DNA of 64,000 nt. It comes from an uncultured cyanobacterium (GTDB lineage: Bacteria; Cyanobacteriota; Cyanobacteriia; PCC-9006; JAAUQQ01). Under the pieces are notes generated by a model. The model was given only the letters and a program-made list of their open reading frames with translations. It did no database searches and was not told the origin of the DNA. The DNA lies in NCBI GenBank assembly GCA_963718615.1, contig OY970368.1:1664001-1728000 (forward strand). Reading direction: 5' to 3'. Made by a program: the position numbers and the translations under genes. Numbering within the stretch: position 1 is the first letter of the stretch; every line of letters starts with the position of its first letter. Positions 61,894-64,000 of the stretch are shown one piece after another.

Positions 61894-62511
61894 GCGTTAC
61901 AGTTATGTGAGAATGTGGCAATGCAAGAGTGAATTGCCACGCAGCTTTGGGTTGATGATGACACCTTATACTTCTTTTTGAATGTAGCTAAGAATACAAT
62001 AATCTTCTGGAGAGATGGGATGCTTGATGAGAATCGATATCAGTGCTAAACGCTCTCTGGCAAAGCTACTATGAATATTTTGCTCTAGCGGAGCCAATGT
62101 GATGGCGATCGCGCTAACATACTCATACGTATTATTTTAAGCTTTCTGGTACGGAGGTATTATGGTTGGCGATCGTTTGCTCCATTTACTGCATGAGTTG
62201 CCTATCGACTACGAGCAGCTGGCCAGAAAGGATCAAGCTCAGCAACTGGATCATCAAACACAAAACATTGATTCAAAGACAAATTTAGGAATTTTGGGCT
62301 GAAATGGGTCAGATGTACGAGAGAGTATAGGCAATATACTGATTGGCTGACGCTGCAGGATGACGATTGATGAAAATAAGAAAAAAAGTTTTATTGCCAC
62401 CAAAGTTAATAGATTGATTGTGCCAGAAGATATTTAGTCACTATCATTAGTGTTAAGTTATGGAAAAAACAATATAAATAGGGCAAATCTATCTTTGGAA
62501 GTAATTTAACT

Positions 62512-63396
62512 ATGGCAGACTCTATACTACACAAAATTTCTGGCTGTGAGAACAAATCACGCAGTGGCGATGTGGTTTTTGTTCATGGGCTAGGTGGGGA
62601 CGCTATTAAAACTTGGCATCATAATGAGAAAGCAATAGACAAAAAAGAGATACCTTCAGATTTTTGGTTAAGCTGGCTTGGTCGAGAACGCGATGATTTA
62701 GGAATTTGGTCATTGGGGTACGCATTGGCTCCCTTCGCTAGCCAAGGTGAAACAATGCCGCTAATCGACCGTGCCCGCAATGTGCTGAGTCGTTTTGGTA
62801 ATTATAAACTCGGGGAGCGCCCATTAATTTTTGTCGCTCATAGTATGGGTGGCCTACTTGTAAAACAAATGTTGCGCCAAGCAGCCGATCAACAAGAACA
62901 GAGTTGGCAACAGGTTCGCTTGAATACAAGAGGAATTATTTTTATTGCAACTCCTCATTTTGGATCACAATTAGCCAATTCTATCGAGAAGCTAGGGAAA
63001 ATTCTACCCTCTTCAGTTAGCGTAAACGAATTAATGCCCAATAATCCATATCTTCGTGATCTGAATGACTGGTATCGTGACAACTGTGAAAGTATACCAA
63101 TAAAGATTTACTTCGAAAAATACAAAACAACAAACAACAAACTTTCCTGGTTTAAGACTTTAGTGGTTGATGAAACAAGCTCTAATCCTGGAATTACAGG
63201 AGTTCGTCCTATACCTATTGATGCTGATCATTTGTCAATTTGCAGGCCTGAAAATGAAGAACGACAAATTTATATGGAAACAAGAGACTTTTTAGAAAAG
63301 CATCTCTCATCGTGTTCAAGTGTGCCACACTCAGCATCGACAGAGTTAAAGCATAACGGCCAGTTATTGAAATTGTTAACAAAAAACCCTTTCTAG
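62512..63396 (+). CDS. Alpha/beta hydrolase (PGAP1/SERAC1/SesB-like esterase), 0-frame product
   Basis: VVFVHGLGG, FVAHSMGGL (nucleophile Ser), ATPHFGS, VVD..S, DADHLSIC (His). Confidence 0.9.
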   Translation: MADSILHKISGCENKSRSGDVVFVHGLGGDAIKTWHHNEKAIDKKEIPSDFWLSWLGRERDDLGIWSLGYALAPFASQGETMPLIDRARNVLSRFGNYKLGERPLIFVAHSMGGLLVKQMLRQAADQQEQSWQQVRLNTRGIIFIATPHFGSQLANSIEKLGKILPSSVSVNELMPNNPYLRDLNDWYRDNCESIPIKIYFEKYKTTNNKLSWFKTLVVDETSSNPGITGVRPIPIDADHLSICRPENEERQIYMETRDFLEKHLSSCSSVPHSASTELKHNGQLLKLLTKNPF

Positions 63397-63437
63397 CCCC
63401 CTTAAAAAAGGCTTTTGATGAGTATTTAAGGGGGCTA
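63381..63437 (+). other. Candidate -1 programmed ribosomal frameshift cassette
   Basis: In-phase A_AAA_AAC (63381-63387), 6-nt spacer CCTTTC, 13-bp perfect stem TAGCCCCCTTAAA (63394-63406) / TTTAAGGGGGCTA (63425-63437). Confidence 0.75.
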
Positions 63438-64000
63438 CTAAAATTTCTTACAAGACCCAAAATAGTTAAATTTATCCTATTTTCCTCTATCTCTTGTGGT
63501 GGAGTATTCTTACTGCCTGACTGTGCTTTTCGTTTCGCTAACCATCTTGAACAGATGGGAGATCAGGCTGTGTTACAAAAGAATTTCCGAAAAGCACAGG
63601 AGCAATACGAGAGGGCTCAAGAAGCTTACAACTTTTCGGCAAATATGGGATTTTTGCCAGCGGCATCTCGGTGGGCATGGATTGAAGCTGAAAAAAAGCA
63701 ACCAAAATCTGCACTTAGTTATATTGAAAATTTTTCGACTAGAATAGGTAAATTAGCTAATACTAATAATTGGAAACAAGATTATTTCGAGATGAAAGTA
63801 TTTTTACTTATTGAAACTGATCAAATAAAAGAGGCAGAAGAAATCTTAGAGTTTAATATTTTAAGGCCACGAAAAAATCAAGCTGAAAAATCGAAAATCT
63901 GGTTTTTATCGGGAAAACAGTCTTATAGTTCAATTCATGCTTGTCTCACTCTGGAAATTAAAGAGAAGCAATCTAGAGAAAAAAGTGAAAATGAGATCAA
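63387..64000 (+). CDS. -1-frame continuation: hydrophobic segment plus TPR-like helical region, runs off the window
   Basis: Own translation PFLAPLKKAFDEYLRGLLKFLTRPKIVKFILFSSISCGGVFLLPDCAFRFANHLEQMGDQAVLQKNFRKAQEQYERAQ...; no stop from 63357 to 64000; first ATG only at 63555. Confidence 0.75.

What the first reader, a model, noticed from the sequence alone, without database searches (positions are those of the whole stretch)
62512..64000. Candidate programmed -1 frameshift joining an alpha/beta-hydrolase to a hydrophobic-segment plus TPR-like module
Seen: the hydrolase ORF ends ...ACA AAA AAC CCT TTC TAG (TKNPF*), so A_AAA_AAC is in the exact X_XXY_YYZ phase. Six nt later a perfect 13-bp stem with an 18-nt loop begins (63394-63406 / 63425-63437), and the 0-frame stop is its first triplet. 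The -1 frame opens just upstream (last stop 63354-63356) and has no stop for more than 200 codons of AT-rich DNA. It has no ATG, GTG or TTG until 63555, yet before that it encodes a hydrophobic stretch (IVKFILFSSISCGGVFLLP), followed by TPR-like helices (GDQAVLQKNFRKAQEQYERAQ). Known: a slippery heptamer plus a 5-9-nt spacer plus a hairpin is the -1 frameshift layout of IS1 (A_AAA_AAC) and dnaX (A_AAA_AAG), and PGAP1/SesB-like hydrolases serve as effector domains of TPR/STAND conflict proteins. Inference: one mRNA gives an abundant free 294-aa hydrolase plus a minor fusion of at least 496 aa. This would fix effector-to-sensor stoichiometry in a recoding-controlled signalling or defence module that annotation pipelines would split or call a pseudogene.
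Basis: partly seen in the sequence, partly recalled or inferred. Interest (0 to 1): 0.88.

Follow-up and report, generated by a model that had tools for sequence, protein, structure and literature searches.

The report
Conserved frameshift cassette after a hydrolase gene
The end of this hydrolase gene carries a slippery site and RNA hairpin that recur, in the same reading phase, at the joint between effector and sensor modules of bacterial immune-like proteins, so one message probably makes both a free hydrolase and a longer fusion protein.

Summary
The 294-aa hydrolase ORF ends ACA AAA AAC CCT TTC TAG. A perfect 13-bp stem starts at the stop. The -1 frame is open for 249 codons, to 64106 just past the window, with no ATG/GTG/TTG before 63555.

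Comparison supports a programmed -1 frameshift. Among 80 hydrolase loci, 30 have a long -1 ORF running through the stop, against 4 in +1. Twenty-two share one cassette: an in-phase C_CCY (mostly A_AAC_CCU), a 5-6-nt spacer, a hairpin, and a 0-frame stop 0-4 codons on. The stem covaries. A covariance model finds one site in this genome. It also finds 12 further conforming sites behind TIR, trypsin-like and CHAT modules; partners seen across the set are NB-ARC, NACHT, AAA_35, CHASE2, GUN4 or TRADD-N/CHAT.

The window's partner is an orphan with a hydrophobic segment and weak TPR likeness.

Nothing has been shown experimentally. My literature searches found no report.

The parts
62512..63396 (+). 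0-frame ORF: alpha/beta-hydrolase of 294 aa (DUF676/PGAP1-like, 'esterase/lipase family')
   Evidence: ORF; PF05057, E = 8.1e-08; 512 homologues; 87 of 119 listed homologues are 330 aa or shorter, median 305.
63381..63387 (+).
   Evidence: (not present at the other cassette junctions).
63384..63390 (+). A_AAC_CCT, the family-conserved X_XXY_YYZ heptamer (X=A, Y=C); proposed slip site, with tRNA-Pro moving from CCU to CCC in the A site
   Evidence: A_AAC_CCU in 16 of 34 cassette sites; C_CCU in 30 of 34; model R1 positions 1-7.
63391..63396 (+). 6-nt spacer TTCTAG holding the 0-frame stop TAG (63394-63396)
   Evidence: in 34 of 34 cassette sites the 0-frame stop lies 0, 1 or 4 codons after the CCN codon.
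63394..63437 (+). Stimulatory hairpin: 13-bp stem (63394-63406 / 63425-63437) with an 18-nt loop. The family-conserved core begins at G63396.
   Evidence: -22.2 kcal/mol; 91.5% of cells paired, 12 of 13 pairs with changes on both sides, 0 of 500 shuffles reach this; R1: 42.1 bits; the only + strand hit in the 6.1-Mb genome.
63357..64000 (+). -1-frame ORF, open from 63357 and continuing to 64106 beyond the window (249 codons); orphan protein
   Evidence: only itself found in the two large protein searches.
63459..63530 (+). Hydrophobic, TM-like segment of the -1 product (residues 35-58 of the -1 ORF)
   Evidence: KD at or above 1.6. Parallel case: the -1 partner in L072 is a TM segment plus GUN4.
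63555..63572 (+). First canonical starts in the -1 frame: ATG 63555 and GTG 63570. GGAG 63558-63561 lies 8 nt before the GTG. The gene caller's 178-aa product (P0002) starts at the GTG.
   Evidence: The TPR-like alignment begins 12-17 residues upstream of the ATG.

Best explanation
The 3' end of the hydrolase gene carries a conserved programmed -1 ribosomal frameshift cassette.

Proposed mechanism:
- Most ribosomes decode ...AAC CCU UUC and stop at UAG. This gives the free 294-aa hydrolase.
- A fraction stall at the hairpin (63394-63437) with CCU in the A site and slip one base back (CCU to CCC; AAC to AAA in the P site).
- Those ribosomes read on in the -1 frame. The result is a 531-aa fusion: hydrolase, then a hairpin-encoded linker (NPFLAPLKKAFDEYL...), then a hydrophobic segment, then a helical, weakly TPR-like domain.

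The same cassette sits at the joint between N-terminal effector modules (alpha/beta-hydrolase, TIR, trypsin-like, CHAT) and C-terminal sensor or NTPase modules (NB-ARC-TPR, NACHT, AAA_35, CHASE2, GUN4) in cyanobacteria and several other phyla.

Shown: the anatomy, phase conservation, stem covariation, and coding constraint in the -1 frame. Inferred: that slippage occurs, how efficient it is, and what the two-product ratio is for.
For: 1. Anatomy in the window.

2. Frame bias. Of 80 hydrolase loci, 30 have a -1 ORF of at least 150 codons running through the stop, against 4 in +1.

3. Motif association. An in-phase A_AAC_CCN occurs in 11 of 80 loci. All 11 are among those 30; none is among the other 50.

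4. Hairpin. Twenty-two junctions share C_CCN, a 5-6-nt spacer and a hairpin of -15 to -43 kcal/mol.

5. Covariation. 91.5% of cells are paired, against 33-49% when partners are slid. Twelve of 13 pairs change on both sides. No shuffle of 500 reaches this.

6. Specificity of model R1. It finds only these 22 sites on the + strand in 0.67 Mb of loci, with three weak hits on the palindromes' opposite strand. It finds one + strand site in the 6.1-Mb genome, with one weak opposite-strand hit.

7. Hits outside the training set.
- Genomes: L089, L091-L094, L100, L101.
- Metagenomes: 6 of 6 hits at 30 bits or more conform.
- All have the CCN codon in phase with a 0-frame reading frame open for 108-365 codons upstream, a stop 0-4 codons later, and a -1 ORF that is long or runs to the contig end.

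8. Placing the slip. In L093 the -1 frame opens at AAA_CCC and the 0-frame stop follows CCT directly. In L101 a -1-frame TGA directly precedes CCC. Together these put the slip on the CCU codon.

9. Coding constraint. In codons 16-60 after CCN, differences are mostly synonymous in the -1 frame. For L050 versus L083 it is 18 synonymous and 7 non-synonymous, against 3/19 and 3/21 in the other frames. This stretch lies upstream of the first canonical start in L051, L060 and L076.

10. Domains beginning before any start. NB-ARC or AAA_35 envelopes begin before the first canonical start in L063, L081, L085 and L071.

11. In-frame fusions exist. Hydrolase-GUN4 proteins P0004, P0005 and P0048 are single ORFs, homologous to the -1 partner in L072.

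12. Motif competence. C_CCU and C_CCC are frameshift-prone tetramers in E. coli when a stimulator is present (PMC4066793, passages read).
Against: - No expression, protein or reporter data exist for any of these sites.
- A_AAC_CCU is not among the high-efficiency E. coli motifs. A_AAC_CCA stayed below threshold even with the IS3 pseudoknot (PMC4066793).
- In at least 12 of 34 sites the P-site codon (CGC or GAC) cannot re-pair after the slip. There only A-site slippage is plausible.
- The window's partner has no homologue, so selection on it cannot be shown.
- A GGAG 8 nt before GTG 63570 would allow independent initiation.
- Decayed or non-conforming cassettes exist: L102, L116 and L095, plus short -1 ORFs in L051, L060, L074 and L080.
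- The structure and model R1 were derived from the same 22 sequences, which I picked by eye from 26 loci with an in-phase C_CCN. R1 E-values are rough.
Confidence: 0.72

Rival explanations
1. There are two ordinary, separately translated genes. The hairpin acts as a terminator or as an mRNA-stabilising or processing structure. The downstream gene starts at ATG 63555 or GTG 63570, and the open frame upstream of it is chance.
For: - The gene caller made a 178-aa protein from GTG 63570 (P0002), and GGAG lies 8 nt upstream.
- The hydrolase has the usual stand-alone length.
- The downstream ORF resembles none of 119 homologues' C-terminal extensions; the best E is 1.1.
Against: - The stretch is stop-free in only 357 of 20000 shuffles.
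- No run of T follows the stem, and the terminator scan does not call it.
- The site matches a phase-locked, covarying cassette whose other members have -1 ORFs lacking canonical starts.
- The TPR-like alignment begins upstream of the ATG.
Confidence: 0.1
2. The window holds a relic of the cassette. The locus descends from a frameshift-joined gene but no longer works as one, and the orphan partner is decaying or expressed only from its internal start.
For: - Decayed examples exist: L102 has a TGA in the -1 frame followed by NB-ARC remnants, and L116 and L095 do not conform.
- The partner is an orphan in an AT-rich island: 34-38% GC against 52% for the genome.
- The window's hydrolase sits on a long branch (quick tree only).
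Against: - The heptamer, spacer and perfect 13-bp stem are intact.
- The -1 frame has 0 stops in 238 codons at 34.5% GC, against 9-30 in the other five frames.
Confidence: 0.1
3. A one-base deletion, real or an assembly error, in the A6 or C3 run has split a gene that is a simple in-frame fusion.
For: - Reading one extra A would give the same fused protein.
- In-frame fusions exist in homologues.
- In the A-run class, L015 differs from in-frame L034 by 1 nt at the junction.
Against: - An indel does not explain a covarying hairpin at a fixed distance, or a 0-frame stop within 4 codons, in 34 of 34 sites from independent assemblies.
- Runs of 3 C or 6 A are short for systematic error.
Confidence: 0.03
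4. The downstream ORF starts on its own at a non-canonical codon. ATA 63462 would give MVKFILFSS..., a signal-anchor-like N-terminus. CTG 63513 lies 9 nt after a GGAG.
For: - Positive residues precede the hydrophobic stretch, which is the natural layout for an N-terminal membrane anchor.
- These codons are in frame.
Against: - It does not explain the conserved in-phase heptamer and hairpin.
- In relatives the constrained -1 coding begins right after the hairpin.
- That ATA and CTG starts are rare and weak is my recollection, not a call result.
Confidence: 0.02
5. The element works at the DNA level, for example as a recombination joint for swapping effector and sensor modules, and translation does not cross it.
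For: The same cassette lies between many different module pairs and is patchy on the hydrolase tree (quick tree).
Against: - A DNA site would not need the CCN codon in phase, a stop within 4 codons, or an open, selected -1 frame that lacks start codons.
- The two roles do not exclude each other.
Confidence: 0.03

Closest known systems
IS3/IS1-family transposase frameshifting (OrfA / OrfAB)
   Same: An in-phase X_XXY_YYZ heptamer, a short spacer and a downstream structure. The 0-frame stops soon after the site. A short 0-frame product and a longer trans-frame fusion share the N-terminus. (Recalled; the review PMC5009743 was read in passages only.)
   Different: There is no transposase: the upstream protein is an alpha/beta-hydrolase. 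The motif is A_AAC_CCU or C_CCY, not A_AAA_AAG or A_AAA_AAC. There is one copy per genome, not a repeated mobile element.
dnaX and phage tail-assembly chaperone (G/GT) -1 frameshifts
   Same: Programmed -1 slippage with a hairpin about 6 nt downstream sets a fixed ratio of two proteins from one mRNA. An SD-like GGAG lies 8 nt upstream of the heptamer in 11 of 34 cassette sites, which recalls the upstream dnaX stimulator (recalled).
   Different: In dnaX the shifted product is the shorter one. The motif and the protein families differ. The window itself has no upstream GGAG.
Bacterial NLR-like / STAND conflict proteins with N-terminal effector domains (Avs, bNACHT; effector-associated and Death-like domain systems)
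   Same: The cassette-joined products have that architecture: an effector (hydrolase, TIR, trypsin-like, CHAT) followed by NB-ARC or NACHT and then TPR or FGE-sulfatase repeats. Homologues carry bDLD, TIR, TPR or GUN4 tails in frame.
   Different: Known examples are single ORFs or separate interacting proteins. In the papers I searched or read in passages, none mentions recoding at the joint. The window's partner has no NTPase domain.
C_CCY tetramer frameshift motifs tested in E. coli (Sharma et al. 2014, PMC4066793)
   Same: C_CCU and C_CCC rank among the six tetramers clearly above background when a stimulator is present (passages). C_CCU or C_CCC occurs in 33 of 34 cassette sites.
   Different: Those were reporter constructs with the IS3 pseudoknot. 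No natural gene family using C_CCY with a hairpin appears in the passages I read.

Membership tests
Canonical programmed -1 ribosomal frameshift signal | Slippery X_XXY_YYZ heptamer in the 0-frame phase | tested here: met
   The window has A_AAA_AAC (63381-87) and A_AAC_CCT (63384-90), both in phase. A_AAC_CCN occurs in 18 of 34 cassette sites; C_CCN occurs in 34 of 34.
Canonical programmed -1 ribosomal frameshift signal | Stimulatory RNA structure 5-9 nt downstream, maintained by selection | tested here: met
   From A_AAC_CCT the spacer is 3 nt to the first pair and 5 nt to the conserved G-C pair. From A_AAA_AAC it is 6 nt. Covariation: 12 of 13 pairs change on both sides, and 91.5% of cells are paired against 33-49% when slid.
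Canonical programmed -1 ribosomal frameshift signal | -1 frame open from the site and coding, with no independent start | tested here: met
   Window: 238 codons with 0 stops, first canonical start at +158 nt. Relatives: synonymous excess in the -1 frame upstream of the first start.
Canonical programmed -1 ribosomal frameshift signal | Two protein products observed; frameshifting depends on the heptamer and the structure | not testable with these tools
   This needs reporter assays, a western blot, MS or ribosome profiling.
IS1/IS3 insertion-sequence frameshift | Transposase ORFs, terminal inverted repeats, multiple copies | tested here: not met
   Pfam gives a hydrolase only. The hairpin arm is unique in the genome. 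R1 gives one + strand site per genome.
STAND / NLR-like effector-NTPase protein | Central P-loop NTPase (NACHT, NB-ARC or AAA_35) downstream of the effector | tested here: not met
   The window's -1 ORF has no Pfam or NCBIfam hit. The feature is met in many relatives.
Esterase/lipase (DUF676 / PGAP1-like) alpha/beta-hydrolase family | Family HMM match and conserved GxSxG nucleophile region | tested here: met
   PF05057 scores E = 8.1e-08, 32.5 bits, against a cut-off of 20.3. H110, S111, G113 and G114 are invariant in 30 aligned sequences.
TPR repeat protein (downstream ORF) | Significant match to TPR profiles | tested here: inconclusive
   No Pfam hit at E up to 0.1. One hit to TPR_12 repeats at E = 3.2e-4. 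ESM Atlas neighbours are TPR clusters at 0.90-0.91, which the tool rates as weak. The AF2 model has pLDDT 40.8 and is unusable.

The most novel reading that the evidence does not exclude
A portable -1 frameshift linker (C_CCU, a 5-6-nt spacer and a covarying hairpin) is a general building block of modular bacterial NLR-like immune or conflict genes across phyla. It is kept or exchanged at the effector|sensor joint. It fixes the ratio of free effector to effector-sensor fusion. That could keep the dangerous full-length sensor scarce, or supply free effector subunits that are recruited into the activated oligomer.
Probability: 0.35. Interest if true: 0.92.

Novelty: new variant of a known kind. 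Interest (0 to 1): 0.85.

Why it matters
- **Recoding in cellular genes.** If frameshifting occurs here, bacterial NLR-like/STAND conflict systems would join the short list of cellular (non-mobile, non-phage) gene families that use programmed recoding. The signal would be conserved from cyanobacteria to proteobacteria, planctomycetes and verrucomicrobia.
- **Annotation.** Pipelines split these genes or call them pseudogenes. Here, P0002 and P0003 are separate entries. Effector-sensor architectures would therefore be under-counted.
- **A testable question.** The cassette offers a handle on how the dose of toxic effector relative to sensor is set.
- **A search tool.** It gives a compact, searchable RNA motif for finding such genes.

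Tried and rejected
**Steps that led nowhere**
- Protein searches for the downstream ORF. In 5.8 billion clusters the only hit was its own 178-aa entry. In 1.84 billion representatives the hits were itself plus one marginal TPR/STAND protein.
- No relative of that ORF among 60 related genomes. The hydrolase had one relative there.
- A BLAST of the orphan against 119 hydrolase homologues gave nothing; best E was 1.1.
- AF2 without an alignment gave pLDDT 40.8, which is unusable.
- ESM Atlas gave only weak TPR leads.
- Rfam gave no family; the best hit was a chance lncRNA match at E = 0.28.
- The promoter and terminator scan did not call the hairpin a terminator.
- The look-up of sequencing runs listed no run and no RNA holder. 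The A6 run therefore could not be checked in reads, and read laying was not used.
- The first related-loci run, with the single protein, found nothing. The alignment query worked.
- The loose pattern scan of 400 genomes gave 19 matches against 8 for the reversed control. Most were short-stem chance hits. Only 4 passed the ORF test, and 3 of those repeated known sites.
- Metagenome R1 hits below 27 bits: 0 of 7 conformed.
- The careful tree did not finish, so only the quick tree is used.
- Supplements of the papers were closed. The GeneTack cluster tables (PMC3711429) could list such genes, and I could not see them.

**Considered and rejected**
- A repeat or MITE: the arm is unique in the genome.
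- An IS element: there is no transposase.
- Transcriptional slippage for Class I: there is no long homopolymer.

**Selection of rows**
- Of the 26 loci with an in-phase C_CCN I aligned 22. I dropped L021, L031, L056 and L079, where the CCN lies 12-33 nt before the stop and I saw no hairpin. R1 later found no match in them.
- L058 runs off its contig.
- L145 was left out because it is near-identical to L163.
- L095, L102 and L116 were left out as non-conforming.

**Literature**
- Searches found no paper linking ribosomal frameshifting with NACHT, NB-ARC, STAND or NLR-like bacterial genes.
- Papers read in passages only: PMC3711429, PMC5009743 (first 300,000 characters held), PMC4066793, 10.1101/2022.07.19.500537 and PMC13581612.
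Full report
**1. The observation**

The ORF 62512..63396 encodes a 294-aa protein ending ...ACA AAA AAC CCT TTC TAG. A_AAA_AAC (63381-63387) is in X_XXY_YYZ phase.

Arms 63394-63406 and 63425-63437 form a perfect 13-bp stem with an 18-nt loop. MFE is -22.2 kcal/mol, z = -2.69, and 2 of 200 shuffles fold as well.

In the -1 frame the last stop is at 63354-63356. The frame then runs 249 codons to 64106, just beyond the window. Its first ATG/GTG/TTG is ATG 63555. A gene caller used GTG 63570, giving the 178-aa P0002.

**2. Is it more than chance?**

- The 53 codons between the stop and the ATG are stop-free in that frame in 357 of 20000 dinucleotide shuffles.
- The 238 codons after the slip site have 0 stops, against 9-30 in each of the other five frames, at 34.5% GC.
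- The genome holds 16 sites in 14 loci with an in-phase heptamer (Y = A or T), a 0-frame stop within 30 codons and a -1 ORF of at least 200 codons. In the other 13 loci, a canonical start lies between -1669 and +62 nt of the stop. Here it lies at +158.
- The hairpin arm is unique in the genome.
- The locus is AT-rich: 32-43% GC in 400-nt windows, against 52.3% for the genome.

**3. The two proteins**

The upstream protein is a DUF676/PGAP1-like alpha/beta-hydrolase (PF05057, E = 8.1e-08). It has 512 homologues at E up to 1e-3.
- Of the 119 homologues listed, 87 are 330 aa or shorter, with a median of 305. So 294 aa is a normal stand-alone length.
- Others carry in-frame C-terminal GUN4, TIR, Death-like or TPR domains.

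The -1 ORF is an orphan. It found only itself in two very large searches, plus one marginal hit (E = 3.2e-4) to the TPR_12 repeats of a STAND NTPase.
- That alignment starts 12-17 residues upstream of the ATG.
- Pfam and NCBIfam find nothing.
- ESM Atlas neighbours are TPR clusters at 0.90-0.91, a weak lead.
- The AF2 model is unusable.

**4.

I fetched 80 loci with hydrolase relatives, the best of 284. One runs off its contig. With the window added, that makes 80 junctions.

- Thirty have a -1 ORF of at least 150 codons running through the hydrolase stop. Four have such an ORF in +1.
- An in-phase A_AAC_CCN lies within the last 12 codons in 11 of 80. All 11 are among those 30, and none is among the other 50.
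- With the variants A_GAC_CCT, C_CGC_CCY and C_CCC_CCT, 22 junctions share one layout, which I call Class I: C_CCN, a 5-6-nt spacer, a hairpin of -15.2 to -43.3 kcal/mol, and a 0-frame stop 0-4 codons after CCN.

In the window this motif is A_AAC_CCT at 63384-63390. The spacer is TTCTAG and the stem core is CCCCCTTAAA / TTTAAGGGGG. Both heptamers give the same peptide...TKNPFLAPLK.

**5. Is the hairpin selected?**

On the 22-sequence alignment A2, the 13 pairs are formed in 91.5% of cells. With partners slid by 1-3 columns the figure is 33-49%. Twelve of 13 pairs show changes on both sides, and none of 500 shuffles reaches the observed values.

Stems differ by lineage:
- GCCCCTCT / AGAGGGGC
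- GCCTCTTTA / TAAAGAGGC
- GACCCACTG / CAGTGGGTC
- GGCCCGTCGG / CCGGCGGGCC

Caveat: I chose the 22 and derived the structure from the same sequences.

**6. Specificity and generalisation**

I built covariance model R1 from A2.
- On the + strand it finds only the 22 training sites in 0.67 Mb of loci, with three weak hits on the palindromes' opposite strand.
- In the 6.1-Mb genome it finds one + strand site (42.1 bits, E = 5e-6) and one weak opposite-strand hit.
- It finds one site in each of four other host genomes.

Scan of 150 same-class genomes: 8 sites in 7 genomes.
- Two repeat training sites.
- Four have the CCN in phase with a 143-317-codon upstream ORF, a stop 0-1 codons later, and a -1 ORF open to the locus end (at least 518 codons).
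- One conforms but is cut by its contig end.
- One weak hit has no ORF.

Further conforming sites came from an order-level scan (L100) and a pattern scan (L101).

Metagenome contigs: 6 of 6 R1 hits at 30 bits or more conform, and 0 of 7 below 27 bits do.

Over the 34 sites tabulated (22 training plus 12 new):
- The tetramer is C_CCU in 30, C_CCC in 3 and C_CCG in 1.
- The 0-frame stop is 0, 1 or 4 codons after CCN in 6, 21 and 7 sites.

**7. Which modules the cassette joins**

Pfam results:

| Side | Modules (example loci) |
|---|---|
| Upstream (0 frame) | alpha/beta-hydrolase; TIR_2 (L089, L091, L093); hydrolase plus TIR (L068, L100); Trypsin_2 (L094); CHAT (L130, L163) |
| Downstream (-1 frame) | NB-ARC, mostly with TPR_12 (L040, L063, L081, L085, L089, L092, L094, L101, L130); NACHT, some with FGE-sulfatase (L050, L065, L100, L163); AAA_35 (L071, L149); CHASE2 (L027); TM plus GUN4 (L072); TRADD-like_N plus CHAT (L162); no family (window, L061, L068, L074, L078) |

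In-frame hydrolase-GUN4 proteins (P0004, P0005, P0048) are homologous to the -1 partner in L072. So the fused architecture exists elsewhere as a single ORF. L072 also resembles the window in having a TM segment just after the hairpin-encoded linker.

**8. Is the -1 frame translated from the cassette?**

- In six proteobacterial loci, codons 16-60 after CCN differ mostly by synonymous changes in the -1 frame. For L050 versus L083 the count is 18 synonymous to 7 non-synonymous. Read in the other two frames the same differences give 3/19 and 3/21.
- This stretch lies wholly upstream of the first canonical start in L051, L060 and L076.
- NB-ARC or AAA_35 envelopes begin before the first canonical start in L063, L071, L081 and L085. 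In L085 the P-loop itself precedes it.
- In L093 and L081 a -1-frame stop directly precedes AAA_CCC. In L101 a -1-frame TGA directly precedes CCC. In L093 the 0-frame TAG directly follows CCT. If one mechanism is shared, the slip occurs with CCU being decoded.

**9. Mechanism**

The geometry is that of a classical -1 frameshift: an A-site codon, a 5-6-nt spacer and a hairpin.

In E. coli reporters, C_CCU and C_CCC are among the six tetramers clearly above background when a stimulator is present (A_AAG >> U_UUC > U_UUU > C_CCU = C_CCC > A_AAA). A_AAC_CCA was one of three heptamers below threshold (PMC4066793, passages).

I therefore expect low-percent efficiency: mostly free hydrolase and a minor 531-aa fusion. 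This is inference; no efficiency has been measured.

**10. A second junction type**

Six relatives instead have A8-A10 runs or A_AAA_AAG directly before the stop, followed by a long -1 ORF: L009, L011, L015, L016, L053 and L077. The partner is a NACHT protein in five of them; the L015 partner has no Pfam hit. L026 has an A10 run with a +1 ORF.

For L015 a plain indel cannot be excluded. It differs by 1 nt from the in-frame orthologue L034, and its -1 ORF is 71% identical to the C-terminal half of that 498-aa protein.

**11. Evidence against, and limits**

- There are no expression data.
- The window's partner is an orphan.
- GTG 63570 has a GGAG 8 nt upstream, so independent initiation is possible.
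- Decayed cassettes exist: L102 has a TGA in the -1 frame, and L116 and L095 do not conform. L051, L060, L074 and L080 have -1 ORFs of only 66-138 codons.
- P-site re-pairing is impossible in the CGC and GAC variants.
- The tree is only the quick version. It shows Class I in at least five places and puts the window on a long branch.

**12. Prior knowledge**

Rfam has no matching family. My full-text searches found no paper linking ribosomal frameshifting with NACHT, NB-ARC, STAND or NLR-like bacterial genes. The passages I read did not mention it either.

**13. Verdict**

The window holds one member of a conserved, phase-locked, covarying -1 frameshift cassette. That cassette sits at effector|sensor joints of modular conflict genes in several phyla.

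- Confidence that the window's site belongs to this cassette: high.
- Confidence that it frameshifts in vivo: about 0.7.

Noticed in passing
L009, L011, L016, L053, L015, L077, L026 (hydrolase-homologue loci): This is a second junction type. A8-A10 runs or A_AAA_AAG lie directly before the hydrolase stop, followed by a long -1 ORF (NACHT by Pfam in five of six; +1 in L026). That suggests frameshifting or transcriptional slippage at the same domain joint. For L015 a plain 1-nt indel relative to in-frame L034 cannot be excluded.
   Followed up: partly
Cassette loci L051, L057, L061, L063, L066, L068, L071, L072, L074, L082, L149: GGAG lies exactly 8 nt upstream of the heptamer in 11 of 34 cassette sites, from at least five separate clades. 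This could be an upstream SD-like stimulator, as I recall for dnaX. It is absent in the window.
   Followed up: partly
L102 (G136) and L116 (G451): Both hold cassette-like sites that look decayed. In L102 a TIR ORF and an intact heptamer and hairpin are followed by a TGA 11 codons into the -1 frame, then broken NB-ARC remnants. In L116 the -1 ORF is only 35 codons.
   Followed up: partly
Genome G000:C1:3700618 (outside the window; L120 406..3953): An A10 run sits 7 codons before the stop of a 578-aa ORF. A 588-aa ORF follows in the -1 frame, with its first start 44 nt after the stop. Neither has a Pfam family. This may be another recoding site or a split gene.
   Followed up: partly
Genome G000:C1:2141384 (minus strand, outside the window): An in-phase A_AAA_AAG lies 3 codons before the stop of a 610-aa ORF. 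An 803-aa -1 ORF overlaps it by 244 nt, and a -20.9 kcal/mol structure follows.
   Followed up: no
Window ~61900-64000 and beyond (L002 1-6600): This is an AT-rich island (32-43% GC against 52.3% for the genome). It holds the hydrolase, the orphan -1 ORF, a 409-aa ORF with a weak DUF928 match (E = 5e-4, below cut-off), and a convergent 1572-aa ORF. I did not run that ORF against Pfam; by eye its C-terminal part looks CHAT-like. Its 5' part is GC-rich (52-57%) and its 3' part AT-rich, which suggests a mosaic.
   Followed up: no
L027/L033 and L050/L056 (sister pairs on the quick tree): Close hydrolase relatives differ in whether they have the cassette and a -1 partner. This points to recent gain or loss of the joined module.
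   Followed up: no
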